A DNA stretch of 64,000 nt from an uncultured Alphaproteobacteria bacterium (GTDB lineage Bacteria > Pseudomonadota > Alphaproteobacteria > ATCC43930 > CGMCC-115725): positions 56,847 through 120,846 of the forward strand of contig CAVTUM010000002.1 in assembly GCA_963737875.1 (NCBI GenBank). The letters are read 5' to 3'. Positions 3,510-60,032 of this stretch are shown one piece after another (positions within the stretch are counted from its first letter, which is position 1; every line of letters begins with the position of its first letter). Under the pieces are notes generated by a model. It was not told the origin of the DNA and searched no databases. It saw nothing but the letters and a program-made list of their open reading frames with translations. A program made the translations under genes and the position numbers.

Positions 3510-6422
3510 TCAGGAATGCTCGCTCCGGGCGAGCGGGCGCTGGGTCAGTGGGCCTGATCCCAACTGGTGGCCCAGCCGGTTTCGACGACGAGCGGCACCG
3601 ACAACTCGCAATGTGGCGCGCAGGCGGCCTCCATCACCTCTTTGACCAGAGCGGCGGTGGCCTCGATTTCGCCCTCCGGGAGTCTCGAACAGCAATTCGT
3701 CGTGCACTTGCAGCAGCATGCGCGCCTGCAGCCCGGCGCGGCGGAGGGCAGCAGGCAGGCGGCCCATCGCTCGCTTGATGATGTCGGCGGCGGAACCTTG
3801 TAAGGGCGCGTTGATCGCCTGGCGCTCGGCGCCGGCGCGCCGCGCCGGGTTGGCCTCACGGATGCCGGGAATAAAGCATTTGCGTCCGAAAATCGTCTCG
3901 ACATAGCCGGTGCGACGCGCGTCGGTCTTGATCCGCTCCATATAGGCGCGGATGCCGGGGAAACGCTCGAAATAGGCCTTGATGTAGGCGGCCGCCTCGC
4001 TTTGCGGCACGCCGATCTGGTTGCCGAGACCGAACGCGCTGATGCCGTAAAGGATGCCGAAATTGATCGCCTTGGCACGCCGCCGGGTCAGCGCATCCAT
4101 CTGGTCGAGCGGCACGTTGAAGACTTCGCTGGCGGTCGCGGCGTGAATGTCGTGTCCGGCGAGAAACGCCTCCTTCAGCGCCGGAATATCCGCGACATGC
4201 GCCGCGAGGCGCAGTTCGATCTGGCTGTAATCCGCCGACAGCAGCAGGTTTCCCGGCTCGGCGACAAAGGCGCGGCGGATTTTGCGGCCCTCCTCGGTGC
4301 GCACCGGGATGTTCTGCACGTTGGGATCGGTCGAGGAAAACCGGCCGGTCGTCGTCGCGGTCAGCACAAAAGTCGTATGCACCCGGCCGTCATGGCTGTC
4401 GATCTGGCCGCCGAGCGCGTCGGCATAGGTCGATTTGAGCTTGGTCAGCTGGCGCCATTCCAGCACCTGGGCCGGCACCGGATGCAGCGGGCTCAATTGT
4501 TCGAGGATCGAGGCATCGGTGCCATAGGCGCCGGTCTTGCCCTTTTTGCCGCCGGGCAGTTGCAATTTCTCGAACAGCACGTCGCCCAGCTGCTTTGGCG
4601 ACCCGATGTTGAATTCGCTTCCGACATCGCGCCAGATTCCGGTTTCCAGCTCGGCGATACGGCGTGCGAAATCGCGCGACAATTCGGCGAGCGCATCGCG
4701 ATCGACCTTGACGCCGTGGTCTTCCATCTCGGCGACGGCCGGCACCAGCGGGCGCTCGATGGTCTCGTAGAATGCGGTCATGCGCTCGCGCACCAGCCGC
4801 GCCTTTAGCAGCATGTGCAGGCGCAACGCGGCATCGGCCCGCTCGGCGGCGAAATCGCGCCCCGTCGTGGTCGCGACCTCGGCGAACGCGATCAGGCTTT
4901 TGCCGGTGCCGAGGATTTCCTTCACCGGCGTCAGATTGTGCTCGAAGGCAAGCCGGGTCAGTTCCTCGATCGAATGCTCGATCTGCCCGCCATCGAGCAC
5001 ATACGACATCAGCATCGTGCAGTCATAGGGGCGCAGCGCGATGCCGTGGCGGCGCAGCAGATGCGCCATGCCTTTCATGTCGTGGCCAATCTTCAGAACG
5101 CCGCGGTCTTCGAGCAATGGCTTGAGGCGCGCCAGCGCCACTTCCGGCGTCAGCGTGCGGACGGTTTCAGCCGCTTCAAGCAGCCCCGCCGCGCGATGCC
5201 CGAGCGGTACATAAGCCGCGAACCCCGGCGCCAGGGCCAGCGCCAGCCCGGCAAGCGCCGGCCGCGTCCCGGCGACGACACTCGACGCCACCCACAGCGC
5301 CACCGACCCGGCCTGTTCGGCCGCCTCGATCCAATGGTCGAGACCTTCGACCGTATCAACCACCGCGTAGGTCCGGGGCTCGGAGAACCGCGGGATATCC
5401 GGAATAATCGGCTCGCTCGGCCCTACGGGAGCCGACGAAGTCAACGGTACGCTGATCGCCAGCCGCTTTTCGATGCGCGAGCGCAGCGCCCGCAACTCCA
5501 TCTCATCGAGAAACGGAAACAGCTTTTCGGGATCGTAAGGCTGCACGCGCAGCGCCGAGAGCGGGCACGGCAAGGGCACAGCGTCGTCGAGCTTGACCAG
5601 CACCTTCGACATCCGCGCCTTGGCCGCGTTGTCTATCAGTGCCTCACGGCGCTTCGGCTGCTTGATCTCGTTCGCGCGCGCCAGCAGCGACTCCAGGTCG
5701 CCATAGGTGTTGATCAGTTCGGCCGCCGTCTTGACGCCGATGCCGGGTACACCGGGCACGTTATCGGTGCTGTCGCCGCACAGCGCCTGCACTTCGATGA
5801 CCTTGTCCGGCCCGACACCGAATTTCTCGCGGACTTCGGCCTCGCCGATCGGCCGGTCGGTCATCGGGTCGCGCATCATCACCCGGTCGTCGGCGACGAG
5901 CTGCATCATGTCCTTGTCGGACGAGAGGATCGTCACCTTGGCGCCGGCCTCGATCGCGTGGCGCGTGTAGGTCGCGATCAGATCGTCGGCCTCGAAATTT
6001 CGCATTTCGATTTGGCAGACGCCGAACGCCTCGGCTGCCCGGCGCACATGCTCGAGCTGCGGCGCGAGATCGTCGGGCATTTCGCGCCGGTTGGCCTTGT
6101 ACTGGTCGTAGATTTCGTTGCGGAAGCTGTGCCCGGAGGCGTCGAAAATGACCGCGATATGGTCGGCGTCGGTCTCGCGCAGGTATTTGTCCAGCATGTT
6201 GCTGAAAATCATCACGACTTCGGTCGCCATCCCGTCCGATTTGCGCTGAAAGCGCTCGGCCTTGGGGTCGCGCGCCCGCGCGAAATAGGCACGGAAGATG
6301 AAGCCGGAGCCGTCGATCAGGAATACATGATGCGGCACCGCGGACGGCGGCGGCGCGGCCGACTCAGCGCTCGAATCCGGGGCGGGGCGCTCGGCGACGA
6401 TCGGGGCGATCGCATCATCCAT
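3510..6422 (-). CDS. polA: DNA polymerase I; C-terminal ~45 codons out of frame (single +1 nt near 3680)
   Basis: 970-aa ORF with 5-3 exonuclease (HVFLIDGSGFIFRAYFA), 3-5 exo and polymerase domains up to motif C (QVHDELLFE). The conserved C-terminus PEGEIEATAALVKEVMEAA...VPLVVETGWATSWDQAH is found in another frame (ORF 3545..4078). Confidence 0.9.
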   Translation of the reverse strand: MDDAIAPIVAERPAPDSSAESAAPPPSAVPHHVFLIDGSGFIFRAYFARARDPKAERFQRKSDGMATEVVMIFSNMLDKYLRETDADHIAVIFDASGHSFRNEIYDQYKANRREMPDDLAPQLEHVRRAAEAFGVCQIEMRNFEADDLIATYTRHAIEAGAKVTILSSDKDMMQLVADDRVMMRDPMTDRPIGEAEVREKFGVGPDKVIEVQALCGDSTDNVPGVPGIGVKTAAELINTYGDLESLLARANEIKQPKRREALIDNAAKARMSKVLVKLDDAVPLPCPLSALRVQPYDPEKLFPFLDEMELRALRSRIEKRLAISVPLTSSAPVGPSEPIIPDIPRFSEPRTYAVVDTVEGLDHWIEAAEQAGSVALWVASSVVAGTRPALAGLALALAPGFAAYVPLGHRAAGLLEAAETVRTLTPEVALARLKPLLEDRGVLKIGHDMKGMAHLLRRHGIALRPYDCTMLMSYVLDGGQIEHSIEELTRLAFEHNLTPVKEILGTGKSLIAFAEVATTTGRDFAAERADAALRLHMLLKARLVRERMTAFYETIERPLVPAVAEMEDHGVKVDRDALAELSRDFARRIAELETGIWRDVGSEFNIGSPKQLGDVLFEKLQLPGGKKGKTGAYGTDASILEQLSPLHPVPAQVLEWRQLTKLKSTYADALGGQIDSHDGRVHTTFVLTATTTGRFSSTDPNVQNIPVRTEEGRKIRRAFVAEPGNLLLSADYSQIELRLAAHVADIPALKEAFLAGHDIHAATASEVFNVPLDQMDALTRRRAKAINFGILYGISAFGLGNQIGVPQSEAAAYIKAYFERFPGIRAYMERIKTDARRTGYVETIFGRKCFIPGIREANPARRAGAERQAINAPLQGSAADIIKRAMGRLPAALRRAGLQARMLLQVHDELLFETPGGRNRGHRRSGQRGDGGRLRATLRVVGAARRRNRLGHQLGSGPLTQRPLARSEHS

Positions 6423-6633
6423 GGGCGGCTCCTTCTTCCGCGCCGGCCGCGGCGCCGGCTGTGTCGGCCGAATGCGCCCCCGCGCGGTTGACGAACAGGC
6501 GCGAGCAATACGGGCATTCGACCTGCCCGCTCGGCGCCAGGTTCAAATAAACCCGGGGATGGCCCATCGGGCCGCCACCGCCATTGCAGGCCGCCACCAT
6601 CTGATCGATCTCGATGGTCTCGAAAGGTGTCAT
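6415..6633 (-). CDS. Zinc-finger (zf-CHCC-like) domain protein
   Basis: MTPFETIEIDQMVAACNGGGGPMGHPRVYLNLAPSGQVECPYCSRLFVNR; small conserved alphaproteobacterial Zn-ribbon protein. Start chosen at internal Met (6631-6633) of longer ORF. Confidence 0.55.
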   Translation of the reverse strand: MTPFETIEIDQMVAACNGGGGPMGHPRVYLNLAPSGQVECPYCSRLFVNRAGAHSADTAGAAAGAEEGAAHG

Positions 6634-9657: not shown

Positions 9658-9734
9658 GCGGGGTTCGGTGGTCGTGTTGCACCGCACACCCGGCAGCTTG
9701 ACGGGAATGTGACAACCTGCCGATAATCGTGGCA

Positions 9735-9855
9735 TCCAAGGGGCGCCCCGGTGAAGGGGCTGAGAGACGCTGGGCTGCCGGTCTTTCCAAGTCGGGTGGC
9801 GCGCGGAAACCCTTTGAACCTGATCCGGGTCGTGCCGGCGTAGGGACAGGAATCG
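9735..9855 (+). promoter_or_regulatory. TPP (thiamine pyrophosphate) riboswitch, THI element
   Basis: GGGGCGCCC...GCUGAGAG...ACCCUUUGAACCUGAUCCGGGUCGUGCCGGCGUAGGGA matches the conserved THI-box core (CUGAGA, ACCYUUGAACCUGAUCYGGNUAAUGCCNGCGUAGGGA); located ~75 nt upstream of thiC. Confidence 0.85.
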
Positions 9856-9928
9856 CTTCGGCGAGCGCCGATCCCCCACATCGCGAGCGACCCGGGTCCT
9901 CGGTCCAACCGGTGCCACGGAGGCGTCC

Positions 9929-11793
<1,865 letters not shown>

Positions 11794-12493: not shown

Positions 12494-12604
12494 ATGCCCT
12501 CGCGTTTGTTTTCGCCGATCACCCTCGGCGGCGGCACCTTCGACAACCGCATCGCCGTGTCGCCAATGTGCCAGTACAGCGCGATCGACCGGCGCCCGCC
12601 TTAA
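12494..12604 (+). pseudogene. Remnant (first 36 codons) of NADH:flavin oxidoreductase / Old Yellow Enzyme family gene
   Basis: MPSRLFSPITLGGGTFDNRIAVSPMCQYSAIDRRPP* matches the conserved OYE N-terminus (LFSPxTLxxxTLxNRIxxxPMCQYSA); rest of gene absent, convergent gene stop at 12621. Confidence 0.6.
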
Positions 12605-12620: not shown

Positions 12621-13532
12621 TCACGCCACCGCCTGCTTCTTCGCCTCCCGTGCGGCGATCGCCGCCTCGCGCGCCAGGAGGATTTTGGCGCGTTCGACGA
12701 CCGGCACGTCGATCATCTTGCCATCGAGGGTGACGGCGCCGACGCCTTCGGCGAGCGCCTTGTCATAGGCGGCGACAGAACGTTGGGCATGGTCGACTTC
12801 CGTCGGGGTGGCGCGGAACTCCTCGTTGAGGATCTGGACCTGGCTCGGGTGGATCACGCTGGCGCCGAGAAAGCCGAGCCGGCGCGAACGGCGGATCGTT
12901 TCGCGGAAGCCCTCGAGGTCGTGGAATTCGGCGACGGTGCCGACAAACCCGAGCGGCATGATGCCGGCCGCCCTGGCGGCGAGGATCGCCATCTGTTTCG
13001 GCATGAAGAGGCCCTCCGCTTCGGGCAGCATGCCGGCCGACAGCGCGAAATCCTCGGCCCCGAGATTGAGGCCGACGAGACGCGGGCTGGCCTTGGCGAT
13101 TTCGGCGATGCGAAAGAAGGCCGAGGCGGTCTCGACCATCGCCAGCATCTTGGTGGTGCCGACCGGCATCCCACGTTCCGCCTCCAACTCATCGATGATC
13201 TCGGCGACGAGCTGGACATGCTCGGGGCTTTCCGCCTTGGGGAGCGAGACGCAGTGCACACCCGGCCCGATCACCGCTTCGAGATCGCGCACCGTCATCC
13301 GCATCGGCCGGTTGAGCCGCACGACGACATCAGCGCCGCCGCGCGACACGATCTTCGCCGCCTCGGGCACCAGCGTGCGGGCGCGGTCCTTCTCCGAGGC
13401 CGCAACCGCATCCTCAAGGTCGAGGATGATGGCGTCCGCGCCGCGCCGGGCCGCGCCATCGACAAAACGCTGCGCCGTCACCGGTACAAACAGCATCGAG
13501 CGCCATACGGGTAGGGTTTTGATTTCCATCAT
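12621..13532 (-). CDS. HpcH/HpaI aldolase / citrate lyase beta-subunit-like (CitE family) protein
   Basis: 303 aa; RSMLFVPV start motif, ILDLEDAV, and C-terminal region typical of CitE/malyl-CoA lyase family. Confidence 0.85.
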   Translation of the reverse strand: MMEIKTLPVWRSMLFVPVTAQRFVDGAARRGADAIILDLEDAVAASEKDRARTLVPEAAKIVSRGGADVVVRLNRPMRMTVRDLEAVIGPGVHCVSLPKAESPEHVQLVAEIIDELEAERGMPVGTTKMLAMVETASAFFRIAEIAKASPRLVGLNLGAEDFALSAGMLPEAEGLFMPKQMAILAARAAGIMPLGFVGTVAEFHDLEGFRETIRRSRRLGFLGASVIHPSQVQILNEEFRATPTEVDHAQRSVAAYDKALAEGVGAVTLDGKMIDVPVVERAKILLAREAAIAAREAKKQAVA

Positions 13533-13882
13533 ATCCTCTGATCCAGAGTGACCGGTGCGCTCGCTAATTTCAGATATCGGTCTGTGTTAGCTTCGCTACG
13601 CGCTTTTGGAATTTGCCCGGCAAATCTGTCCACGTTTCCAGCAGATAAAAGGAACCAGCAGATAACGAGCGCTTTCGAGACGACGGTGCTTCCTTATAGA
13701 TATTAAATTCATCTGCGCACCCTTTCGACGCGGGTCCGCATATATGACGTGACCAGAGCAGGAATAAGTATAACTTACTGCAAGTCCATGCTGCTGCGTC
13801 TCGAAGCCCATTTGGGCCAGCGTTTGCTCGACCAGAGGTATTTCCGTTAAGTCTCGAATTCATGGAAGAGAAACAGGCTTTT

Positions 13883-14098
13883 CTAATCAATCAGTTCTGA
13901 CTTCCTATTCGGGGCAAGGACGAACTGTTTTTCAATCTTCCGCCGCTGCGCTTTAAGAGCATTATCTCTAATTCGTTCTTCATCAAATTGCTTGTTTCTT
14001 TGTGCGATGGCCTCTTCCCATCGACGCATCCCATCGTGCAATTCGCTACTGCCTCTTTGTTCTTGTGTATTTTGCCCAAGGAGGCGGGATGCAACCAT
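13883..14098 (-). CDS. Hypothetical basic coiled-coil protein in AT-rich islet
   Basis: 71 aa; RRWEEAIAQRNKQFDEERIRDNALKAQRRKIEKQ; low GC; may be the C-terminal part of the upstream ORF. Confidence 0.3.
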   Translation of the reverse strand: MVASRLLGQNTQEQRGSSELHDGMRRWEEAIAQRNKQFDEERIRDNALKAQRRKIEKQFVLAPNRKSELID

Positions 14099-14372
14099 TT
14101 GCAGAGCGCCACGGATTTATTTCATCTTCTGCGTATATTTCACCCCGATGAGAATAACTGATACGTTTGACGTTTTCGGGATCGTCGCACCATGGATTTA
14201 CCGTCAGAATAGCCTCCAGATGCGGCGCATGGCCGGCGACATCATCGTAATTTTTGGACGATTTTATAAATTCCAAGGCTTGAGAGAGGATTTCGTATGG
14301 CTTTCCGGCTCCCCGGGTCACGCGCATCAAATTCGCAGTCAACTCAATCAGGGTATATTCTACGCGGTGCAT
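14046..14372 (-). CDS. Hypothetical protein in AT-rich islet (no recognisable family)
   Basis: 108-aa ORF in a ~45% GC segment; MHRVEYTLIELTANLMRVTRGAGKPYEILSQALEFIKSSKNYDDVAGHAPHLEAIL...; overlaps next ORF by 52 nt (possible frameshifted fusion). Confidence 0.35.
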   Translation of the reverse strand: MHRVEYTLIELTANLMRVTRGAGKPYEILSQALEFIKSSKNYDDVAGHAPHLEAILTVNPWCDDPENVKRISYSHRGEIYAEDEINPWRSANGCIPPPWAKYTRTKRQ

Positions 14373-14467
14373 CGCTCTTTAATGAGCAGTTCGCGCTCGG
14401 AATTATTGGCGACTAATTCCATCTCCTAAACCTCCTTTGGTCTATCTCCTAAGGACCTAGTTGCGCA

Positions 14468-15740
14468 CTATAGATTTGAACTTTCTCCGGCAACGGGTGA
14501 TTTGTCAGCGTGCGAGCCAACTCTGATCACGCCGTCGCGCGCTAGTTCATCGAGCATGTCGCGGTCGATTCCGAACTGGCCGAGGATTTCGGCGGTGTGC
14601 TGGCCGAGATCGGGGGCCGGGGTGCGCAGGTGGCCGGGGGTGTCGCCGAGGCGCGGGATGATGTTGTGCATCGTGATCGTACCGAGCTGCGCGTCGGGCA
14701 CATCGACGACGATCTCGCGCTCCTGGACATGCGGATCGGCGAGGAACTGGTCGATGTCGTAGACCGGGGCGGCGGTGACCTCGGCGGCGGCGAAGGCCGC
14801 CATGTTTTCGTCGAGGGTGCGGGCGGCGATAAAGGCGACGATCGGCGCCTCGGTTTCCTCCGCGTTCTTCACCCGGTCGGTGTTGGTACGAAAGCGCGGG
14901 TCTTTCAGCATATCGGGGTGACCGATGGCGCGGAACAGGCGCTCCGACATCGCCTGGATCGAGGCCGAGATGCCGATATAGCGGCCGTCCTTGGTGCGGA
15001 ACACATTGCGCGGCGAGGTGGTTTCCGAACGGCTGCCGGTGCGCGGCCGGATCGCGCCGGTCAGGTTGTAGATCGGCGCCTCGGTGGCGATGAACGAGTA
15101 CAGCGGGTCGAGCAGTGGAAGATCAATCACCTGTCCCCTGCCGCCCGCGACCTCGACCTGGCGCAACGCGACCATCACCGAAAACGCGCCGTAGAGGCCG
15201 GCGACCATGTCGGCGAGCGCGGTCGGCGGCAATACCGGCTCGCGGTCGGCGAACCCGGTGCGCGCGGCATAGCCCGACATGCTCTCGACCAAGGTGCCAA
15301 AACCGGGCCGGTCGCTGTAGGGACCGCTCTGCCCCCAGCCGGAGACGCGTACGATCACGAGGCCGCGGGTTGCGTTCATGCAGCGCGGCCGGGGCGAGGC
15401 CCATCTTTTCGAGCGTGCCCGGGCGGAAATTCTCGATCAGCACCTGGGCCGACGCGATCAGGTCCCGCAAAGCGGCGAGGCCGCGTCTGTCGCGCGGGTT
15501 CAGCGCGACGCTCTTCTTATTGCGGGCATAAAGCTTCCAGTGGACGCTGACACCGTCGGTCTGCCACGCGCGCAGCGGGTCGCCCTTTTGCGGGTCTTCG
15601 ATCTTGATGACCTCTGCGCCGAAATCGGCGAGCTGCGAGGTCACCGCGTTGCCGGCGACAAGGCGCGACAGGTCGACGACGCGGATGCCGTCGAGCGGGC
15701 AGGGCGCGGCGGGGTCAAACGATTTCGCCGACACACTCAT
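14468..15740 (-). CDS. CoA transferase family III (CaiB/BaiF-like), one +1 frameshift near 15357
   Basis: N-terminal half [31 protein letters not shown]...ALHERNP (ORF 15123..15740) continues as [27 protein letters not shown] (ORF 14468..15379) after deleting one C in CCGCGG. Confidence 0.85.
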
Positions 15741-23492: not shown

Positions 23493-23522
23493 CCAGCGTG
23501 CGTGAAAATGGGGAGTGCGCCT

Positions 23523-24565
23523 ATGGAATTCGGCATGTTTCACGAGCTTCCGTCGATGCCGGGGCGCAGCCAGACGGAAATGTTCGACGAGGCGATGGAG
23601 CAGATCGACGCCGCCGAGCGCTGGGGCCTCGACGTCGATGTGGTTGGCGGAAATCCATTTCGCGCCGGAACGCACCTATCTGTCGGCGCCAATGACGCTC
23701 GCCAGCGCGATCGCCGCCCGCACCAAGCGGATGAAGATGGGCATCGCGGTGCAGGTCCTGCCGTTGTGCCATCCGCTGCGCATTGCCGAAGAGGCCGCGA
23801 CGGTCGACCAGATCAGCGAAGGCCGGCTGATTTTCGGGGTCGGGCGCAGCGGCGTCGTCAGCACCTATGACGCCTATCAGGTGCCTTATGACGAAAGCCG
23901 CGAGCGGTTTACCGAAATCCTCGACATCGTCGAAGAGGCTTGGAGCAAGCCGACCTTCTCGTATGAGGGCAAATACTACCGCTTCGATGACGTCGCCTGC
24001 GTGCCGCACCCGTACAAAGGCAAGCTGCCGCCGATCCGCATCGCCGCCAGCACGCCCGATACGTTTCCCGCGATCGGCGGGCTCGGCTATCCGGTGTTCG
24101 CCAGCATGCGCCACACCAACCTGGACCGATCTGAAGCCGCAGGTCGCCAGCTATCAGCAGGGCTGGAAAGACGCCGGCCGCAAGGGCAAGGGCCAGGTGT
24201 TCATCTCGGCGCCGATCTACATCGCCGAGACCGAGCAGCAGGCGCGTGACGAGGCGCGCGAAAGCGTCCAGCATTTCTACCGGCTGCAATACGAACTGAT
24301 CGCCGAGTCGGCGCGCCGTTCCGGCCGGCAGAGCTTTATCGATCGCGCCGAGCTGCTGCGCACCCTGACCTATGAGGACGCGATCCGCGGTAACGTCATT
24401 GTCGGCACGCCGGATAGCGTCGCGGCGCGCTTGAAGCAATTGCAGGACGAGATCGGCTTTGACGGCATTCTCGCCGAGCTGAATTGCGGCGGTATCATCC
24501 CACACGACCGCGTGATGAACGCGCTGCGCCTGATGTGCCAGGAGGTCATGCCGCGCTTCCGGTGA
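23523..24565 (+). CDS. LLM-class flavin-dependent oxidoreductase (luciferase-like), two +1 frameshifts (~23640, ~24125)
   Basis: MEFGMFHELPSMPGRSQTEMFDEAMEQIDAAERWGLDV|MWLAEIHFAPERTYLSAPMTLASAIAARTKRMKMGIAVQVLP...|TWTDLKPQVASYQQGWK...GIIPHDRVMNALRLMCQEVMPRF. Confidence 0.8.
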
Positions 24566-26582: not shown

Positions 26583-26755
26583 CTGGGTTCTCCCGCCAAT
26601 CCTCAATTGGAAACGAAACTGCAATAGGATACGCAGGCGATCGGCCGGCCTCCCCGCGATGGCGGCTTGCGGCGAATTAAATCGCTGACAGGTTTGCCTG
26701 GGGCGATATCCGAGGCGATGCCCGAGGCGATGATTGGCGCGAGGAGAGAAGCAAC

Positions 26756-27977
26756 ATGCCGAAGACCGATGGCACGCGGGTCGTGGCCGATTTGAAGCGG
26801 CTCGCCGAGTTCGGCCGCTACAAGACCGGGGTGCACCGGCCGACCTACTCGCCGGTCGATGTCGCCTCGCGCCAGTGGCTTGCCGATAAATTTGCCGAGG
26901 CCGGGCTCGAGCCGGTGATCGACGGCATCGGCAACGTGTTCGGCCATAATCCGCGCGCGACCAAGCGGCTGCTGGTCGGTTCGCACAGCGAGACCCAGCC
27001 GCATGGCGGCTGGCTCGACGGCGCGCTTGGGGTGATCTACGGCGCTCGAACTGGCGCGCGCCTTCGCCGCCGACCCGGCGCTGGCCGGGCTCGGCATCGA
27101 GCCGGTCGCCTGGGCCGACGAGGAAGGCCATTACGGCAACATGCTCGGCAGCCGCTCATTTACCGAGCTGCTGCTCGATGCCGAGATCGACAGCGCCACC
27201 AGCCGCGACGGCAAGACGCTGCGAGAGGCGCTGGCCGAGGCCGGGTTCGCCGGCCGCGCCGCGCGAGCAGCATCGACCCGGCGCGCTATGTCGGTTATCT
27301 CGAAGCCCATATCGAGCAGGGCAACACGCTGGAAACCAGCGGGCTGCGGATCGGCGTCGTCGAGGCGATCATCGGCAACTGGAACTACGGCGTCACCTGC
27401 ACCGGCGAGCAGAACCATGCCGGCACGACCCAGATGCGCCGGCGCAAGGATGCCGGTGTCGCGATGGTGCGCCTCGCCAACCGCATCCACGACCGCTTTG
27501 CCGCGATCGCCGGGCCGCGCACGGTGTGGACGATCGGCCGGATGCTGCTCGACCCGAACGCGCCGAGCATCGTGCCCGGCCGCGCCGAGATGCAGGTGCA
27601 GTTCCGCGACACCGATACCGGCATCCTGCGCGCTTCGAGACGGCCTTGCTCGAACTGGTTGCGGCGAGCCGACGCGGCCGGCCCTTGCCATATCACGATC
27701 GAGCCGATGTCGAAGAGCGAGCCGGCGCGCGATGGACGCGCGATTTCCGGCGTCTGATCGAAGCGGTCAGCCGAACGCCACGTGCCCGGCCTGCATCTGC
27801 GGATGCCGAGCGGCGCCGGGCACGACGCGCAAATCCTGTCGCGCCGCATGCGCGCCGGCATGATGTTCATCCCGAGCATCAGCGGCGTCAGCCACCACTG
27901 GTCGGAAGACACCGCGGAAGAGGACATCGTGCTCGGCGCGCAGGTATTCGCCGACGCCGCCGCCGCCATTCTCCAGG
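26756..27977 (+). pseudogene. M20-family Zn-dependent amidohydrolase (allantoate amidohydrolase / N-carbamoyl-amino-acid hydrolase-like), at least 3 frameshifts
   Basis: …GSHSETQPHGGWLDGALGVIYG|LELARAFAADPALAGLGIEPVAWADEEGHYGNMLGSRSF…|SIDPARYVGYLEAHIEQGNTLE…VQFRDTDTGIL|…|LHLRMPSGAGHDAQIL…MMFIPSISGVSHHWSEDTAEEDIVLGAQVFADAAAAIL in different frames; 3-prime boundary uncertain. Confidence 0.8.
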
Positions 27978-27991
27978 CAAGCGTAATCATC

Positions 27992-28915
27992 ATGGCCATC
28001 ATTGTCCAGGAATCGCTGCGCGGCTTGTTCTATGCGCCGTATTACGCGGCGCTGGCGCTCGGTGCATATCGAGCAGGAAGGGGTCGAGGTCAGCTTTGTC
28101 GCGGCGCCGCGGCCCGGCGTGGCGCCGGACGCGCTGTTCGACGGTACGGTCGATGTCGCCTGGGGCGGCCCGATGCGGGTCAACCAGATCTACGAGCAGC
28201 GGCCGGATTGCGACCTCGTGTGCTTTGGCGAGGCGGTGACGCGCGACCCGTTCATGCTGGTCGGCGCGCACCCCGAAACCCGGCTTTAGGATCGCCGACC
28301 TGACCAGCGTGCGTCTCGCGACGGTCAGCGAGGTGCCGACCCCGTGGCTGTGCCTGCAGGAGGATGTACGCCGCGCCGGCCTCGATCCGGCCGCGCTCGA
28401 CCCGTGTCGCCGACGGCTCAATGGGCGACAACATGGCGGCGTTGCGCCGCGGCGATGTCGATGTCGTGCAATTGTTTCAGCCGCTCGCCGAGGAGCTGAT
28501 CGCCGCCGGCGACGGGCATTTATGGTACGCGGCGGCCAATCGCGGCCCCTGCTCCTACACGACGTTCTACGCCCGTCGCCCAGTGCTGGCGGCGAAGCGC
28601 GCCGAGTTGCTGCTGCTGGTGCGCGGCCTCTACCGCACCCAGAAATGGCTGCACGCCGCCTCGGCCGACAGGATCGCCGAGGTGGTACAGCCCTATTTCC
28701 CCGCCGTCGCGACGCCGCTGCTGCGCGCCGCCCTCGCCCGCTACCAGAATCTCGGCGTCTGGAACCGCACCCCGGTCCTGCCGCGCGACGGCTACGACCG
28801 CCTCAAGGCCGGCATTATCAGCAGCGGCTTCGCCAGGGGCACCCCCTACGAGGTTGCCGTCGATAACACCCTCGCCGAACAAGCCGTGCGCGACGACCCA
28901 CCGTCAGTGTAGGGG
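27992..28915 (+). pseudogene. NMT1/THI5-like (NitT/TauT-family) substrate-binding-type protein, at least 3 frameshifts
   Basis: MAIIVQESLRGLFYAPYYAALALGAY|…HIEQEGVEVSFVAAPRPGVAPDALFDGTVDVAWGGPMRVNQIYEQRPDCDLVCFGEAVTRDPFMLVGAHPE|…AGLDPAALDP|…GDVDVVQLFQPLAEELIAAGDGHLWYAAANRGPCSYTTFYARRPV…VRGLYRTQKWLHAAS…. Confidence 0.65.
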
Positions 28916-37253: not shown

Positions 37254-38483
37254 CTATTTTTCGGCAGCCGAGTACGGGTATTTCAGGGAGCCGGTCTTCA
37301 GAGCGGGTGGGTCGAGGATGACCTGCACGCCGGGCTTGGCGAACTGGTCGAGGTCGTGGCCTTTCACGCCCTGGTACTGGATCGTCAGGATGCGAGGCTC
37401 GGCCCATTCCCCGTCCGGTCCGAACTTGATGCCGCCCATGATCGTCTTGAACTCGGTCGCGTGCATGTATTGCGCGAGCTTGTCCTGATCGATCGATTTC
37501 GTGCCCTCGACCGCCTGCTCCAATACCTGGAAGGTGGCGTAGACCAGCGGCGGTACGTAATAGCCGAGCGGGTCGGTGCCAGCGTCTTTGGCGCGCGCCT
37601 GGTATTCCTTGATGAAGTCGCCGACGCCAGGGAAATTCATCGTCGGCTCGTGGACGAACAGCTCGTAATCGACGATGCCGTTCAACCGCTCGCCCATCTG
37701 CGATTTGATCGCGCCGTATTGCAGCCCGATGATCGGGCCGCCGAACATCTTGGCCTCGAGCCCCTGTTCTCCGACCGAACGCAGGATGCCGGCGCTGTCG
37801 GCCGGGTATGAGGCGACAAACACCAGGTCGGGGCTGGTCGCCTTGATGGCGCGCACGATCGGGCTGTAGTCGATCGTGTTCGGCGGGTAATTCTTGTCGT
37901 AGACGATCTGCAGCCCGGCCTTTTTGGCGTGTTCGCGCGCCCCGGCCATCGCATTCTTGGAGAACTCGGCGTCGGCGCCGGTCATCGCCAGAGTCTTCGG
38001 CTTCGGATCGATTGACATCGCGGCGGCGAAATAGCCGGCGGTGATCGCTTCCTTGCCCTTCGGGCCGTATGGCATGGTCTGGAAGAAGCGCGGGTAGTGG
38101 AATTCGTCATTGACCGCCAGCGCCAGAGTGTCGAGCACCATGACGTTATGTTCGATCAGCATCGGCATCGCCGCGGCGCTGAAATTGGTGCCCGATGCGA
38201 TGACCAGGTCGATCTTGTCGACATCGAGCAGCTTCGTATAGATGCCTGGCACCAGCGCCGGATTGCTCTGGTCGTCGTAATGGATCAGCTCGACCTTGCG
38301 CCCGAGCAGCCCGCCTTTCGCGTTCACCTGGTCGGCCCAGATCTGCGCCGTCAGGACAAACTGCTTGCCGCTCGCCGCGCTGCCGCCGGTTTCCTCGGCG
38401 CTGAACCCGATCTTGATCGGCGGCTCCGCCGCAACCGCCGGCAGCGACAGCGGCAAGCAGCAAGCCTGCGCCCAGCATTTTTC
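37254..38483 (-). CDS. ABC transporter substrate-binding protein, branched-chain amino acid (LivK) family; frameshift in signal-peptide region (~38425)
   Basis: [20 protein letters not shown]…|[57 protein letters not shown]… Peripla_BP_6 pattern. Confidence 0.85.
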
Positions 38484-38589
38484 TGATACGCATTAACAAC
38501 TCCTAAAACATGACCGTTCCAACGCGGCTCCGCGTCAGATCGAGTCCCGGTTGCCATCAGACTTTGCATTTGCTTCGGTACACTTCCTC

Positions 38590-39582
38590 TTAGATGAACA
38601 CGCCCTTCATCCGCCTGCGGGGTAGCGGGTGCCGGCGGCGGCGCCGACCGGGATGACCGATCGCGATCGCCTCGGTCTCTTCCGGGGTCAGCGTGATGTC
38701 GAGGGCGCCGAGATTCTCCTGGAGGCGGGAGAGCTGCTTGGTGCCGGGGATCGGCAGCACGTCGTCGCCTTGCGCCAAGAGCCAGGCGAGGCAAAGCTGT
38801 GCGACGGTGCAGCGCCGGTCGGCGGCGATTGCTTCGAGGCCTTCGACAAACACCCGGTTTTTCGAGAAATTGTCGCCCTGAAAGCGCGGGTGCCGGCCGC
38901 GCGTGTCGCCGGCGGCGAGATTGTTGAAGTCGGGCACGGCGCCGGCCAGGAGGCTGCGGCCGAGCGGCGCGTAGGCGACAAAGGAAATGCCGAGATCGCG
39001 GGTCACGGCCCGCGTCTCGCTCCGCCTCCTCGCGGTAGAGCAGCGAAAATTCGCTCTGCACCGCGGCGATCGGATGCACCTTGTGCGCCGCCTGGATGCG
39101 CTCGGGCTTGGCCTCGCACAGCCCGATAAAGCGCACCTTGCCCTGCTCGACGAGCCGCGCCATCCCGCCGACCGTTTCCTCGACCGGCACCGTCGGATCG
39201 ACGCGGTGCTGGTAATAGAGGTCGATATGATCGGTATCGAGCCGCTTCAGGCTCGCTTCGCAGGCCTGCTTGGACGTATTCGGGGCGGCCGTTGACGCCG
39301 TTGGCGCCGCCCGGCTGCTGCGTCTGGCCGAATTTGCTGGCCAGCATCGACCTTGTCGCGCCGCCCTTTCAGCGCCCGGCCGAGCAATTCCTCGTTCTGG
39401 CCCCAGCCATACATATCGGAGCTGTCGAGGTGATTGACCCCGAGGTCGATCGCCTGGTGCACCAATGCGATGCCCGCCGCATCCTCGCTCGGCCCATATG
39501 TGCCCGACAGCGACATGCAGCCGAGGCCGATTGCGGTGACTTCCGGTCCGTTTTTGCCCACCCGACGCTTGCCTGCCGCCAT
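38590..39582 (-). pseudogene. Aldo/keto reductase, at least 3 frameshifts
   Basis: [31 protein letters not shown]…[26 protein letters not shown]|VLASKFGQ…GRPEYVQA|[52 protein letters not shown]…|[17 protein letters not shown]…[22 protein letters not shown]. Confidence 0.8.
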
Positions 39583-39702
39583 CTATCGCCTCCCGTTGGT
39601 GCTGCCGCAGCATAGCGGCCACCGGCGCGGCCCGCGAGTTTTTGTGACAATTCGCTGGCGCGCGCTATGATCGCATCACAAGTTTCGACCGAGGAGGGAG
39701 CG

Positions 39703-48892: not shown

Positions 48893-50164
48893 GTGGAACC
48901 CGGAGGGTGCTTAGTGGCTGATATAGCGCTGCTTTTTCAGGCTGACGATCCGCGGCTTCGCACGACGGTCGGGGTACGTGACGGTGAAACGATCGTGTTG
49001 AGCAACTCCGCGGCCGGGATCGGGCTCTATGGTCCATACGTCGATCTGCCGAGCGGCCGGTATCGCGCAAGGATCCGCTTCGCGGAAGCCCACGAAACGG
49101 CCGGCTCCGTCACCATGGATGTCTGTGAAGAGGCCGCGACAAAGATCATCAGTGCGGCCGAATTTGATCTCTCCAATCTGGCGCCGGGGAAGCGCGAAAT
49201 AGAACTGGCCTTTTCGCTCGATCGAGCCGCATCGCTGTGTGAAGTCCGGCTGTTCTGCGCCGCGGCGGTATCCGCGACGATCACCCGTATCGAGATTTTG
49301 TTTCTTGATTTCGAGGCGTCACTGGTTGGCTGGCTGGACCGCCTGGAGCGTCTTACGCACGGCGGACGAGCCACTTACGTCGGGAACAATCGCATCCTGG
49401 CAAGACTGGTCGTCGGAGACACGATCTTCGCCTTCCTGATGCCTGCCAATGATCTGCTAATCGTGCCGGCGACGATTGCACGCGGCGAGTATGAACCGGC
49501 GTTGACGCGGTATTTTACGCGGACCGTTGCGGGCACGGACCATTGCCTGGATGTCGGCGCAAACTACGGCTATTATACTTGTCTGATGGCGAGCCTCACG
49601 CCGGGTGGCAAGGTTCTCGGGATCGAGCCTGATGAGGCGATTTTCGCGTTGATGCGCGATAATCTTTACATAAATACCTTAGAACCGAGTGCGAAGGCGC
49701 TGCATGCCGCCGTGGCCGATCGCTCCGGACGATTGACGTTGCATCGCCGGTCGACCCGTTCCGGCAACACCAGCATCATCAAGTACACAAGTGACTATAC
49801 CGCCAGCGCCGGGGAACAGGCGGCGATGCCATTTGAGGTGGAATGCTTTGCGATCGATGATCTGTTGCCGCGTTTTGATGGCCGGATTGACATCGCCAAG
49901 ATCGATGTCGAAGGTGCGGAACCGCTGGTATTCCGCGGCGCTCGGCGAACAATTCACGAAAACCCGCAGATCAGGATAGTCATGGAATGGTCGCCTGGTC
50001 AGATTCGTGCAGCGGGTTTCGACGTAGGCGAATTTGTCACCGAGCTTACGAGTTTGCGGCTCGATGCCGCCATCATCGGTTCCGCCGGACCGGAGCCGGT
50101 TGCGTTAGCCGATCTCAGCCACACTTCTTACCATTCAGGCATTCTGCTCACGCCGAGATCATAA
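48893..50164 (+). CDS. FkbM-family methyltransferase with ~180-aa N-terminal domain of unknown function
   Basis: C-terminal 240 aa: DVGANYGYYTCLMASLTPGGKVLGIEPDEAIFALMRDNLYIN…IAKIDVEGAEPLVFRGAR (Methyltransf_21/FkbM). Start codon uncertain (possible GTG at 48914). Confidence 0.8.
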   Translation: MEPGGCLVADIALLFQADDPRLRTTVGVRDGETIVLSNSAAGIGLYGPYVDLPSGRYRARIRFAEAHETAGSVTMDVCEEAATKIISAAEFDLSNLAPGKREIELAFSLDRAASLCEVRLFCAAAVSATITRIEILFLDFEASLVGWLDRLERLTHGGRATYVGNNRILARLVVGDTIFAFLMPANDLLIVPATIARGEYEPALTRYFTRTVAGTDHCLDVGANYGYYTCLMASLTPGGKVLGIEPDEAIFALMRDNLYINTLEPSAKALHAAVADRSGRLTLHRRSTRSGNTSIIKYTSDYTASAGEQAAMPFEVECFAIDDLLPRFDGRIDIAKIDVEGAEPLVFRGARRTIHENPQIRIVMEWSPGQIRAAGFDVGEFVTELTSLRLDAAIIGSAGPEPVALADLSHTSYHSGILLTPRS

Positions 50165-50217
50165 TCTTCGCTAACACGTCACGGGCGTCCCCTATAATCA
50201 TCTGTTGCGTATCGCAG

Positions 50218-53200
50218 TTACGCCGACGTCCACTCAGCGGCACGTTCAAACACCACAGTGCTTGCCGGATCCTCATATTCCAAGACATAGGACTGCAAGC
50301 AGATCTGAAGGCCGGCATCAACCGAGAGCGTGAACTCGACACCGTCTTCAGCTCGTTCAATGACGAACTCCGTGTCCAGCAAGCAGCCGCTGGACGGGTT
50401 CACCCCCCAACTTAGCGTAACTTCATGTAGTACTTTCTCACCCTGGTTACTTGTCACGCGCAGATGCGCGCGTCCAGCTTCAATCCCCTCGCTGGTTCCG
50501 AAGCCGCGCAGACGGTGCGGACCGGGGGTGATACCTATATAGGGCCCGAAGGTCAGCACGCCCTCACGCCCGGTGGATTGGATATATCCATTGGCGTCAA
50601 AGCAACCGACCCGCGTCCTGAGCATTCCATCCTGCGAGCGGAACTGCCGCCGCTGTCGGGGAAAGTCAATATCAGGCCCGGTTTTCTGGCCGCGATGCAC
50701 GTCAAACTGGTGATGCAGGTGGAGCGAATAGAGCATATCGAAAAGCCGCCTCGACGATCGCTCGTAGGACGCTGCCGAAGAGATACCAGTCGCGCGGTCG
50801 ACCGCCGCTGTGACACGCGGGGCATGAGTTTCAAGTTCGACGACGAGAGCGGCGATCCCCACCGCCAAATCGCGGGCGCTACAGCCCGGCAGACGCAGAA
50901 CGGCGTCTTCGAGTTCGTCAAACACGGGGAGTGGCGTCACCGCTACCGGAACGCCTGAAACCAGGCAGAGGCGCGCCGCGCCGCTCGCGGAATTGCCGGT
51001 GCTGGGCTGGTAGGGCAACACAATCAGGTCGGCCTCGCGCAAATTGGCGAGGCTCTCATCATCCGTGAGGAAGTCGTTGATCAACGTCACCCGGTCCTGC
51101 ACACCCAGGGAGACGGCGAGTTCCCTGGCTCTCTGGATTAGATCACTGGACACAGGCTCGGGGTATTCCGCATTGACCAATAGGAGATGACCATCGAAAC
51201 CAGCTTCGGACATCAGAGCAAAGGCTTCGATCAGCTCAATCAGGCCTTTGTGTGGAAGAAAAAAGCCGTAACTTGCGATGACTCGCCGCGCGCCGAAGCG
51301 GCGGCGATCTCGGCGGGATGCGGCCAAGTCCGACCTATGGCTTGGATAAGGATGCGGGAACAACGTGACGTTTTCGACGACACCCATATCCTTCAAGCGG
51401 TTCATGTCCGCGATTGAATGCACCAGCACTCTTGAACACCGCGCCAGGAGGGGAGCGATGATTGCCAGTCGCTTAGTCTCGTCCGGATCGTTTTCGTGCG
51501 TTGCGTGGGTTACAAAAATGACGATACGGCCCTGTTTGATCAATTCTTCGATAAAGGTTCGTAGTTCGTGGAAAATAAAGAACGCGTAGTTGAATTGGAT
51601 AACGACAACATCACACGCTGCGGTCGAAATATCGGACAGAAGTCGGTTGAGGCTGCCGTCTGAGCGTGTCCAGTTTCGGGTTACGTTAGGCTCGTCATAC
51701 ATTTCCCGTTCGTCACTAAATGGAGCGAAGATGCGAACATCGGTGCGATTTTCTAAAAGATATTTCGAGTAGGAGGCAACGCCGCAACGAATGTTCCATG
51801 TCGTCACCCAGGCAACTTTCATGTCTGGGCATTGCCAGTCGGCAAAGCTGATGAGGTCCGCGACGTATTGTTGCAGCCGCCAGGCGACATGATCCCACGA
51901 GAAGGACGCTCGAAGGGTATCGATGGCTGCCGTGGTTCGCCGCTGGATCTCCCTTCGCGGCGCGCTGCGGACCTGTCGCATCACGGCAGCCAAATGATCG
52001 ACGCTGGGCTCAGCCCAGACTGATCCTGGCAGGTTGAAATGGCTTCTGGCGCGCGCGAATTTGAAGTCGACGAGCCAGGCCGTCTCGTCACTGCAGAAGT
52101 CAAGATTGCCGCTCCAACCCGTGGCAATTACGGGCAGCCCGTGCACCATCGCTTCCGCCGCAGGCAGGCCGAATCCTTCTGCCCTGCTTGGAGCGACAAG
52201 GGCATGGCACTGGAGGTAGAGCGCATTGATTTCAGCGTCGGACAAATCATCATCAATCAAGACGACATCCGGGTAATCGATATCCTCTGCCTGGAGACGG
52301 GCCAGATCTTCGGCCACGGTGTTGTGCGGATTGGGGGCGGTTTTTATGATGAGCGATACGTCTTCCTGGCGGCGAAATGCCTTGCCATAAGCCGTTAACA
52401 GGCAGTCGACCCCCTTGCGCGGCAGGCACGACGAGATGTGCAGGAAACGATATGCCTTAGCCTGGATGCGGAAATTTGAATTTGGCCGGACCCGATCCCA
52501 GTGATCAATTCCATTGCCTGTCACCGACGTAGGCAGTCGAATCCCATGGTCGATCATCACCTTCTGAACGTGTCGTGACAGACACGTGAGGCCGTTCAAG
52601 CCCGTATTGAAATCGTCCAGCCACTGTTGCGGGAAACCGGCTTCCTCCCAGGCGTAATGATGGAACAGATTAATCGCTCCATTCATCCGTGTGACCCTTG
52701 GCGGATAAACAAGGCGGCTGACGACGGTGAATTCGGCGTCGGCGTCGGCGTCGCGTCCGCGGCTGTGCAAGCGCGCGATGTCGGGAGTTCGGCTTAAGAA
52801 CTCGGGATCAGGGTCGAAGTCGCCTGGTCCTTCCGTCGAAAACAACGATGTATCGACCCCCTGACGGTTTAGGGCCCGAGCGGTTTCCCGATTGACCAGC
52901 GCGAGGCTGTAGCTGGAGTTGAATGGCCCCTCCACACGCCATGTCGGTCGAACAAGCGCCGTAGACGTGGCGTGGGCCGTCGCAGTATCGAGATTGGTCT
53001 GGAGCAGCATACCAGTCGCTGTTCTGCCAGCCTCGTCGACGTCATATTGATCGAGAACCGCTGAGACCGAGCCGACGGCACGAATATACGCGAAATGGGG
53101 CAGGCTCGCGGCGATCAGAGGATGACGCGCCGCCCGCTGTGACAATCGCTGCTCCAGGTTGTCGATTAACCGACTCGCCGTTCGATCCCAGGAAAACTCC

Positions 53201-56719: not shown

Positions 56720-57292
56720 CTCTGTCTCCTAATGCGGCGATCGTAGAAATCGAAACTTCGTCCGCGGCGAACCTTCATCTCCAGGGATGGTTTTAGGCAA
56801 GATGTGAGCCGGTTCGAGTTTGCTTGGAGCGCTCCATAGTGGGCGACGTCAAACGTTCCAGTATGCGAGGCCGAAATCGGCGTGACGTGCGGGCTGACCG
56901 TAGGTGCGCCACGAGCCATAGCCTGGCCTCCGGCGTCTCGTGGGCGGAGATCGTGTTCAGCCGGCGCGTCGCTGTCAATCATTGAGAGAGCGAGGAAGTC
57001 GGGTGCGCTCGCACCGCATCCACTCGCCGATCAACCCTGCCGTCCGGAATGTACAGTACGCCGAACAGGGTGGTCGTGCCGCGTCACTTTAGTCGTGCAT
57101 CATCGTGACCCGTGCAGTTTTGCTTGTTCACTCTTCCCACCGCGGCTGCAACTGCCGGCGAACGCACCCGCCGGCGCTCAATACCACGATCCGAGACCGC
57201 CACCTTCTGCGCCGTGTAGCGGTCCCGGATCAGCCTCCACGCCAACTCACGGCTGTCCGGCTCAGGCTCGCGCGGAGCACCATGCTCCGGCC

Positions 57293-59153: not shown

Positions 59154-59287
59154 GCCTTTTGCGAGTCACCATTTCGGTTGGAACATTTAGGGAACTACTA
59201 CCTCTTTGGAAACGATCGGCAAACTTCGCGGCAACCTATATGATTGGCGCGATTAATGGACATACCTTCCTGGCGGGCGGATCGGCA

Positions 59288-59977: not shown

Positions 59978-60032
59978 TGGGCGGTGAAACGGCGGTAAAA
60001 TCGTTGATGACGGACTCGGCGTCGCGTTCGGG

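What the first reader, a model, noticed from the sequence alone, without database searches (positions are those of the whole stretch)
13540..14467. ~0.9-kb AT-rich islet with overlapping small unknown ORFs between CitE-like and CoA-transferase genes
GC drops to roughly 45% in a 68% GC genome. The islet carries three consecutive minus-strand small ORFs. The first encodes a 108-aa protein with no recognisable family. The second encodes a 71-aa basic coiled-coil protein and overlaps the first by 52 nt. The third, of doubtful coding quality, is coupled to the second by an 8-nt ATG-TGA overlap.

The first two may be one ~175-aa protein split by a frameshift, like many genes in this window. Size and composition fit a horizontally acquired mini-cassette: an orphan toxin-antitoxin or abortive-infection-type module, an anti-defence gene, or a mobile-element relic. 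The neighbouring OYE gene remnant (12494-12604) suggests local deletion or rearrangement.
Basis: seen in the sequence. Interest (0 to 1): 0.55.

Follow-up and report, generated by a model that had tools for sequence, protein, structure and literature searches.

The report
Broken foreign gene inside metabolic operon
The AT-rich islet is one horizontally acquired 284-codon gene of an uncharacterised family, wedged between two formerly overlapping metabolic genes and now broken by four frameshifts and a stop codon. It is ordinary genome flux, not a toxin-antitoxin cassette.

Summary
The AT-rich islet is real: 47.9% GC against 64.5% for the window. The three small minus-strand ORFs are at the stated coordinates.

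They are not three genes. They are pieces of one 284-codon gene (minus strand, 14422 to 13570). It is broken by at least four single-base frameshifts and one in-frame TAG.

A 286-aa intact homologue (61% identical) covers all pieces. It sits at the same junction, CoA-transferase | gene | CitE-like lyase, in a forest-soil contig.

None of 80 related Stellaceae loci carries the gene. In most that could be scored, the two flanking genes overlap by 4-13 nt, so the islet is an insertion.

dN/dS against the intact copy is 0.18, the same as for CitE. The gene was therefore long functional, and the damage is recent or a sequencing artefact.

The N-terminal 170 aa belong to a large family: 1,241 representatives at E <= 0.001. 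It has no Pfam, NCBIfam, PHROG, PADLOC or PDB match. Members lie in prophage-like and defence or toxin-antitoxin islands of Alphaproteobacteria. The C-terminal 115 aa have no detected relatives.

No toxin-antitoxin, abortive-infection or mobile-element hallmark was found. The protein's function remains inferred only.

The parts
13516..14504 (-). Foreign AT-rich insert of about 0.99 kb; the boundaries are approximate to about 15 nt. The left edge lies just past the retained CoA-transferase 3' end (...GTGATCAGAGTTGGCT). The right edge lies inside the first ~6 codons of the CitE-like gene.
   Evidence: GC profile. A host-trained codon model calls 13483-14523 non-coding. Alignments to islet-free relatives and to L001.
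13570..14422 (-). Disrupted CDS, 284 codons after repair. The N-terminal ~170 aa form a 4-helix domain of an unnamed alphaproteobacterial family. The C-terminal ~115 aa form a domain with no detected relatives.
   Evidence: The family HMM matches piece 14049-14378 at positions 26-112 and piece 13886-14116 at positions 113-172. dN/dS is 0.18.
14431..14437 (-). Shine-Dalgarno AAGGAGG, 8 nt upstream of ATG 14422-14420.
   Evidence: Read directly from the sequence. The 36 nt before the ATG are homologous in L001.
14372..14376 (-). Frameshift 1: a 1-nt deletion (AAAGAG^CGATG). It joins the 16-codon start piece to the 108-aa ORF.
14112..14120 (-). Frameshift 2: a 1-nt insertion (GAAATAAATCC). It joins the 108-aa ORF to the 71-aa ORF.
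   Evidence: The HMM hand-off from position 112 to 113 falls here.
13883..13885 (-). In-frame TAG nonsense codon. The intact homologue has GAA (Glu) at this position.
13855..13860 (-). Frameshift 3: a 1-nt deletion (CATGAA^TTCGAG).
13690..13725 (-). Frameshift 4: a net 1-nt deletion in a variable stretch after ...YADPRRKG. Its exact position is uncertain.
14468..14515 (-). Abnormal C-terminal extension of the CoA-transferase (…[18 protein letters not shown]). The gene reads into the insert because its native stop codon was lost.
   Evidence: Comparison with the C-termini of L005, L008 and L052.
15360..15364 (-). +1 (G) frameshift in the upstream family-III CoA-transferase gene (14468-15740).
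12621..13532 (-). Intact CitE-like (HpcH/HpaI) lyase gene. Its first ~6 codons (ATGATGGAAATCAAAACC) and its ribosome-binding site come from the AT-rich insert.
   Evidence: dN/dS is 0.17.

Best explanation
**What it is.** The islet is one horizontally acquired protein-coding gene. It landed exactly at the junction of a CoA-transferase gene and a CitE-like lyase gene whose reading frames overlap, and are presumably translationally coupled, in related genomes.

**What the insertion did.** It removed the CoA-transferase stop codon and supplied a new ribosome-binding site and first codons for the lyase.

**How it is expressed.** The gene has its own strong Shine-Dalgarno sequence. No promoter-like site on its coding strand and no terminator-like site were detected. 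It would therefore be read as part of the host operon (inferred).

**The protein.** It is a soluble 284-aa, two-domain protein. The N-terminal four-helix domain belongs to a large unnamed alphaproteobacterial family with the motifs ELTANLxRVxRGAGK and GALQxxASxLLGQxTQ. That family otherwise occurs as ~170-aa proteins with a basic tail in prophage-like, integrative and defence or toxin-antitoxin islands. The C-terminal ~115 aa were found only in the copies at this junction.

**Its state.** The gene was under purifying selection for a long time. In this genome it is now dead, with four single-base indels and one TAG. It survives as a ~1-kb AT-rich spacer that the lyase needs for its translation start.

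**Likely activity (inferred, low confidence).** The intact protein is most likely a nucleic-acid- or protein-binding accessory factor of mobile elements. It is not an enzyme of the host pathway.
For: **One gene.**
- The intact 286-aa homologue P0001 spans all pieces.
- The family HMM passes from position 112 to 113 across the ORF1/ORF2 break.
- The repaired CDS reads through for 284 codons apart from the single TAG.

**Foreign origin and insertion.**
- GC3 is 48% against 85% for the host CitE.
- 0 of 80 related loci carry the gene.
- In about 40 of the 67 loci that could be scored, the flanking genes overlap by 4-13 nt.
- The flanks track each host lineage right up to the junction.

**Same junction elsewhere.** L001 has the same arrangement, with its copy also at low GC, 50-54%.

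**Past function.** dN/dS is 0.18 overall, 0.17 for the N-domain and 0.19 for the C-domain, against 0.17 for CitE.

**Family size and anonymity.**
- 1,241 representatives at E <= 0.001.
- No curated family or PDB sequence match.
- Source annotations say only 'hypothetical protein'.

**Structure and solubility.** The four helices have pLDDT 91-98 apart from one loop. There is no transmembrane segment.

**Genomic contexts of the family.**

**Signals in the islet.** No terminator-like site, no promoter-like site on the coding strand, and no Rfam hit.
Against: - The frameshifts could be consensus errors. The window has other frameshifted genes, and the source genome could not be found for checking.
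- The gene sits at an identical junction in two lineages whose closer relatives have empty sites. A single simple insertion followed by vertical descent does not explain that.
- Transcription of the islet was not measured.
Confidence: 0.78

Rival explanations
1. The gene is intact in the organism. On this reading the four frameshifts are assembly or consensus errors, and the TAG is a fifth error or a real polymorphism. The islet would then be a live accessory gene co-expressed with the operon.
For: - Several other genes in the window are frameshifted, including thiC with two indels within ~30 nt.
- Many relatives are long-read MAGs.
- dN/dS of 0.18 shows no long decay.
Against: - The frame breaks are concentrated in a few genes, while polA and many 1.5-3 kb genes are clean. 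That fits relaxed selection better than random error.
- The islet has 4 indels in 0.85 kb, far above the window average.
- None of the indels lies in a long homopolymer.
- A substitution-type TAG is also present.
Confidence: 0.22
2. The islet holds two or three separate small genes that form an orphan toxin-antitoxin, abortive-infection or anti-defence cassette.
For: - Small overlapping co-directional ORFs, one of them basic.
- One family member lies beside PIN/antitoxin pairs and AbiEi fragments.
- A weak PtuB hit, E 0.036.
Against: - The ORF boundaries fall inside a single conserved domain.
- An intact one-piece homologue exists.
- No toxin, antitoxin or defence family hit was found for the pieces; of the whole family only Pfam, PHROGs and NCBIfam were searched, also without result.
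- No conserved partner gene was found in 15 loci.
Confidence: 0.03
3. The gene is a selfish, homing-like element. On this view it spreads to empty CoA-transferase/CitE junctions by recombination, degenerates after fixation, and is lost again.
For: - An identical junction in two lineages whose CitE proteins are 77% identical, while their closer relatives have pristine empty sites.
- One copy is intact and one is degenerate.
- Long-term purifying selection.
- The flanking CoA-transferase is damaged in both carriers.
Against: - No nuclease motif or fold was detected.
- The N-domain family is otherwise scattered at many different loci.
- The same junction holds unrelated inserts in other lineages, so it may simply be a permissive site.
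- There are only two carriers.
Confidence: 0.05
4. The islet is a relic of a transposon, MITE, integron cassette or prophage end, and the ORF is incidental.
For: - An 8-nt direct repeat CTCTGATC at 13536-13543 and 14521-14528 flanks the islet.
- The neighbouring OYE gene is truncated.
Against: - Six exact 8-mers repeat by chance in the same 1.1 kb, and L001 lacks the flanking repeat.
- There are no terminal inverted repeats, transposase or integrase, and no Rfam match in the 2.6 kb searched around the islet.
- The ORF fills about 86% of the insert and evolved under selection.
Confidence: 0.04

Closest known systems
Unnamed family of alphaproteobacterial 'hypothetical proteins', for example WP_307282535 (Phyllobacterium ifriqiyense) and WP_184768094 (Aminobacter lissarensis)
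   Same: - The N-terminal 170 aa match the family profile.
- All residues that are invariant in the 11-sequence alignment A1, which includes the repaired window protein, are by construction present in it: L28, A30, N31, R34, R37, G38, A39, G40, P67, L107, Q108, A111, S112, Q117.
- The protein is soluble and helical and occurs in an accessory-gene setting.
   Different: - Typical members are 140-200 aa with a basic tail, and sit in prophage-like or integrative islands, in 6 of 15 loci within 5 kb of an XRE-type repressor.
- This gene carries an extra ~115-aa C-terminal domain.
- It sits alone inside a metabolic operon.
- It is broken.
Single-gene flexible islets or 'moron'-type inserts at a permissive junction
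   Same: - A single ORF with its own ribosome-binding site, of foreign composition, with no mobility genes.
- The same junction holds other single genes in other lineages: DUF4279, a SAM methyltransferase, NIPSNAP, an 81-aa hydrophobic protein and a 271-aa unknown.
   Different: - Classical morons lie in prophages and carry their own promoter and terminator. No coding-strand promoter or terminator was detected here.
- This insert also rebuilt the start of the downstream gene.
Free-standing homing endonuclease genes
   Same: - A patchy, same-site distribution with empty sites in close relatives.
- One carrier copy intact and one degenerate, as in a homing cycle.
   Different: - No LAGLIDADG, GIY-YIG, HNH or PD-(D/E)xK signature or fold was found.
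- No cleavage data exist.
Type II toxin-antitoxin modules
   Same: Small, overlapping, co-directional reading frames in an AT-rich islet. This is a superficial resemblance.
   Different: The 'two genes' are halves of a single domain, and no toxin or antitoxin family matched.

Membership tests
Unnamed NLxRVxRGAGK four-helix family (defined here by profiles built from alignments A2 and A3) | Significant profile match across the whole ~170-aa domain. | tested here: met
   Piece 14049-14378 matches HMM positions 26-112 (E 1.3e-25). Piece 13886-14116 matches HMM positions 113-172 (E 5.9e-20). P0001 scores E 3.6e-50.
Unnamed NLxRVxRGAGK four-helix family (defined here by profiles built from alignments A2 and A3) | Invariant residues: N, R, R-G-x-G in the helix 1 / loop region, and A in the GALQxxAS helix. 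| tested here: met
   The window reads ELTANLMRVTRGAGKP and RGALQMVASRLLGQNTQ. The invariant columns were computed with the window sequence included. N31, R34, R37, G38, G40 and A111 are invariant across 92 members.
Unnamed NLxRVxRGAGK four-helix family (defined here by profiles built from alignments A2 and A3) | Typical architecture: a stand-alone ~140-200-aa protein. | tested here: not met
   This gene and P0001 carry an extra ~115-aa C-terminal domain. No relatives of that domain were found.
Type II toxin-antitoxin module | Two separately translated partner proteins that belong to toxin and antitoxin families. | tested here: not met
   The ORFs are fragments of one domain. Pfam, NCBIfam and PADLOC gave no significant hits. 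The family has no conserved neighbour.
Known anti-phage defence or abortive-infection systems (PADLOC) | Match to a defence-system protein model. | tested here: not met
   The only hit was PtuB at E 0.036 over 30 residues.
Homing endonuclease gene | A nuclease domain of the LAGLIDADG, GIY-YIG, HNH, His-Cys or PD-(D/E)xK type. | tested here: not met
Homing endonuclease gene | The same insertion site in divergent hosts, with empty cognate sites in close relatives. | tested here: met
   Only two carriers are known.
Homing endonuclease gene | Site-specific cleavage of the empty allele. | not testable with these tools
   This needs biochemistry.
IS element, MITE or transposon | Terminal inverted repeats, a target-site duplication, and a transposase or multiple copies. 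| tested here: not met
   No terminal inverted repeats were found. The single 8-nt direct repeat is at chance level and is absent from L001. The window holds only one copy.
Programmed ribosomal frameshifting or recoding | A single conserved shift site with a slippery motif that is also present in homologues. | tested here: not met
   There are four shifts in both directions plus a stop codon, and no X XXY YYZ motif at any site. The homologue is a single uninterrupted ORF.

The most novel reading that the evidence does not exclude
The NLxRVxRGAGK four-helix family has more than 1,200 representative clusters and is absent from Pfam, NCBIfam, PHROGs and, for the window pieces, PADLOC. It could be a new functional module of alphaproteobacterial mobile elements, for example a regulator or a phage-host conflict factor. 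Its two-domain variant could be a self-propagating single gene that repeatedly occupies the CoA-transferase/CitE junction by recombination. It would then stay AT-rich and under selection despite long residence in an 85% GC3 host.
Probability: 0.07. Interest if true: 0.7.

Novelty: new member of a known kind. Interest (0 to 1): 0.3.

Why it matters
- **Annotation.** Three 'orphan ORFs' should be recorded as one disrupted gene. The downstream lyase depends on foreign DNA for its translation start.
- **A family to curate.** The work exposes a large alphaproteobacterial protein family that no curated library covers. It deserves a DUF entry and a functional test.
- **Genome dynamics.** The locus is a clean natural example of a tiny operon junction that repeatedly accepts single foreign genes.
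- **An unameliorated gene.** One such gene has stayed unameliorated and under selection across deep host divergence.

None of this changes current concepts.

Tried and rejected
- **Curated libraries.** Pfam, NCBIfam, PHROGs and PADLOC on the pieces and on the fused protein gave nothing significant. Pfam, PHROGs and NCBIfam on 92 family members gave no consistent family.
- **PDB by sequence profile.** Nothing.
- **C-terminal domain.** Two index searches and a local HMM against all fetched loci found no relatives. The index search failed to return even P0001, so this negative is weak.
- **Phage and plasmid collections.** tblastn of family members found no phage hit and one partial Mesorhizobium plasmid hit.
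- **Conserved neighbours.** Clustering over 15 loci found only XRE-type HTH genes, in 6 of 15.
- **Remnants of the islet.** The 80-700-bp spacers of relatives hold none. The 80-160-bp ones among them are GC-rich palindromic repeats or unrelated genes.
- **Other signals.** Rfam, promoter and terminator scans found nothing on the coding strand. The repeat search found no terminal inverted repeats, and the 8-nt flanking direct repeat was judged to be chance.
- **Frameshift counting.** A codon-model Viterbi pass over-called frame switches, for example in polA. It was used only as a guide for Pfam checks.
- **Source genome.** An exact-protein look-up found no record.
- **Literature.** Searches on family accession numbers found nothing.

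Full report
**1. Observation.**
- The 935 bases between the CitE-like gene and the CoA-transferase gene have 47.9% GC against 64.5% for the window. That is about the 1st percentile of equally sized windows.
- The three minus-strand ORFs exist: 14046-14372 (108 aa), 13883-14098 (71 aa, pI 9.8) and 13570-13890 (106 aa).
- Minor corrections: the first overlap is 53 nt, and the 8-nt overlap is TTG/TAG rather than ATG/TGA.
- A 16-codon ORF was missed. It starts at ATG 14422, behind a strong AAGGAGG.

**2. One gene, not three.**
- A search with the fused ORF1+ORF2 sequence found P0001, a 286-aa protein, at E 3.6e-50.
- tblastn of P0001 back on the window covers the whole islet while hopping between frames.
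- Repairing four single-base indels gives a 284-codon reading frame, 14422 to 13570. The indels are at ~14374 (deletion), ~14117 (insertion), ~13858 (deletion) and ~13716 (net deletion).
- The repaired frame contains one in-frame TAG at 13885-13883, where P0001 has Glu. It is 61% identical to P0001 end to end.
- A profile built from 92 family members matches ORF1 at positions 26-112 and ORF2 at positions 113-172. The ORF1/ORF2 break therefore lies inside a single domain.
- Codon-phase GC periodicity switches at the same places.

**3. It was a working gene.**
- dN/dS between the repaired window gene and the L001 gene is 0.18. It is 0.17 for the N-domain and 0.19 for the C-domain.
- That equals the value for the neighbouring CitE-like gene, 0.17. 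Synonymous sites are near saturation, with pS 0.66.
- The disruptions are therefore recent relative to the gene's history, or they are artefacts.

**4. It is an insertion.**
- P0001 lies in a forest-soil contig (L001) in the same place: CoA-transferase, the gene, CitE-like lyase. Its copy also has low GC, 50-54%.
- A scan with the CitE-like protein fetched 80 loci. They come mostly from Stellaceae (now Allostellaceae, Rhodospirillales) and other alphaproteobacterial MAGs. None encodes the islet gene.
- In about 40 of the 67 loci that could be scored, the CoA-transferase and lyase genes overlap by 4-13 nt.
- The closest relative of the window is L005, with CitE 94% identical. It has a 136-bp GC-rich palindromic spacer.
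- The closest relatives of L001 have the overlap; L052 is 92.5% identical.
- GC3 of the islet gene is 48% in the window and 53% in L001, against 85-86% for CitE.
- The insert removed the CoA-transferase stop codon. That gene now reads 15 extra codons into the islet.
- The insert also supplies the lyase's ribosome-binding site and its first ~6 codons.
- No mobility gene, terminal inverted repeats, coding-strand promoter, terminator or Rfam hit was found in or next to the islet. An 8-nt flanking direct repeat is at chance level.

**5. Pseudogene or sequencing error?**
- The window has other frame-broken genes:
  - thiC (at least 3 shifts)
  - the CoA-transferase (+1 G at ~15362)
  - a luciferase-like gene
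  - an M20 peptidase
  - an aldo-keto reductase
- polA and many 1.5-3-kb genes are clean.
- Breaks clustered in a few genes, non-homopolymer contexts and a nonsense substitution favour real decay. I put this at about 0.7-0.75.
- The source genome could not be located for checking.

**6. What the protein is.**
- An exhaustive profile search found 1,241 representatives at E <= 0.001, of which 928 are at <= 1e-10. Typical length is 140-200 aa.
- Named members are 'hypothetical protein' from Phyllobacterium, Aminobacter, Aquibium and Rhodospirillaceae.
- No Pfam, NCBIfam or PHROG family or PDB sequence matched the family, and PADLOC, searched with the window pieces only, gave nothing significant.
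- AlphaFold gives a confident four-helix domain, with pLDDT 91-98 apart from one loop. Its last helix is long and basic. The conserved polar residues sit at the helix-1 end and loop (N, R, RGAGK) and on helix 3 (GALQxxASxLLGQxxQ).
- Fold searches returned only generic bundles.
- Contexts of family members are as follows:
  - integrase/XRE-repressor islands
  - prophage remnants with terminase, SNase and DUF6074
  - a conjugative-element-like region
  - a restriction-modification/DarTG island
  - a PIN/antitoxin islet
  - ten IMG/VR proviral contigs
- The only recurrent neighbour is an XRE-type HTH gene, in 6 of 15 loci.
- The family is absent from sequenced phages and almost absent from plasmids.
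- The C-terminal ~115 aa are modelled with low confidence as a helix, a three-strand meander and a terminal helix. They have no detected relatives.
- The protein has no transmembrane segment.
- My functional reading is inference only: a mobile-element accessory factor that binds nucleic acid or protein.

**7. Wider pattern.**
- The same junction holds unrelated single genes in other lineages:
  - DUF4279 (L021, L030)
  - a SAM methyltransferase (L039)
  - NIPSNAP (L048)
  - an 81-aa hydrophobic protein (L024)
  - a 271-aa unknown on the opposite strand (L012)
- So this is a permissive hotspot.
- Both islet carriers have a damaged CoA-transferase. The window copy has a frameshift and a lost stop codon. 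L001 has a ~960-bp internal deletion that keeps the same 3' end, AGAGTTGGCT.
- The identical junction occurs in two lineages whose closer relatives have empty sites. The two islet copies are as diverged as their hosts. Together these point to an old presence/absence polymorphism shuffled by homologous recombination.
- A homing-like drive is not excluded but has no nuclease evidence.

**8. Verdict.** The feature is an ordinary kind of thing, a decayed foreign single-gene islet. Its modest added value is an uncurated family and an insertion hotspot.

Noticed in passing
L012 5096-5920; L021 5540-5992; L030 5492-5926; L024 5630-5959; L039 5115-5960; L048 5505-5891; spacers in L005-L010, L014, L015, L020, L028: The CoA-transferase/CitE junction is a hotspot for unrelated single-gene inserts. 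Found there: DUF4279, Methyltransf_11, NIPSNAP, an 81-aa hydrophobic protein, and a 271-aa unknown on the reverse strand at 53% GC. Other lineages carry 80-160-bp GC-rich palindromic (REP-like) spacers instead. The ancestral state is a 4-13-nt gene overlap.
   Followed up: partly
window 14468-15740; L001 1048-1332: The CoA-transferase upstream of the islet is inactivated in both islet-bearing loci. The window copy has a +1 G at ~15362 and a lost stop codon. L001 has a ~960-bp internal deletion. The downstream lyase stays intact in both.
   Followed up: partly
window 13570-14422 and L001 1336-2196: The islet gene keeps a GC3 of 48-53% in hosts with a GC3 of 85%, although synonymous sites between the two copies are near saturation. 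It shows no amelioration despite apparently long residence.
   Followed up: partly
window 9702-11793: thiC is split into at least three frames. The pieces are the ThiC-associated domain in 9702-10484 and the core in 10358-11152 and 11149-11793. Two indels lie within ~30 nt near 11090-11125.
   Followed up: partly
window 23506-24562; 26681-28300; 38354-39664: Further frame-broken genes.
- A luciferase-like monooxygenase is split, with profile positions 39-234 and 198-309 in two ORFs.
- An M20 peptidase has only its C-terminal part in frame.
- An aldo-keto reductase has only profile positions 76-171 in frame.

Breaks cluster in a few genes, while polA (3510-6542) and other long genes are intact.
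   Followed up: partly
window 12494-12604: A 36-codon N-terminal remnant of an Old Yellow Enzyme / NADH:flavin oxidoreductase gene lies between the NUDIX gene and the lyase gene. It matches Oxidored_FMN profile positions 2-30 of 342 (E 1.8e-5, 24.6 bits, below the 27-bit curated cut-off).
   Followed up: yes
window 48900-59990 (GC minimum ~43% at 53.0-54.3 kb): A larger lower-GC region that a host-trained codon model partly calls non-coding. It encodes a 1,375-aa multi-GT4 glycosyltransferase (including GT4-conflict), two FkbM-type methyltransferases (one with TPR) and a histidine kinase. It is probably an acquired surface-glycan island.
   Followed up: partly
window 14418-14452: A 12-nt near-repeat, TTAGGAGATAGA and TTAGGAGATGGA, with copies starting 23 nt apart, lies in the leader of the islet gene. 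The second copy contains the start codon. L001 has a similar pair. Its meaning is unknown.
   Followed up: no
L085 8758-10704; L003 3330-4458: In two loci the family gene is flanked by ~56-aa ORFs and is abutted or overlapped by a downstream small ORF. In L085 the gene lies about 1 kb from, and divergent to, an XRE-type repressor gene. No sequence similarity between these small neighbours was detected.
   Followed up: no
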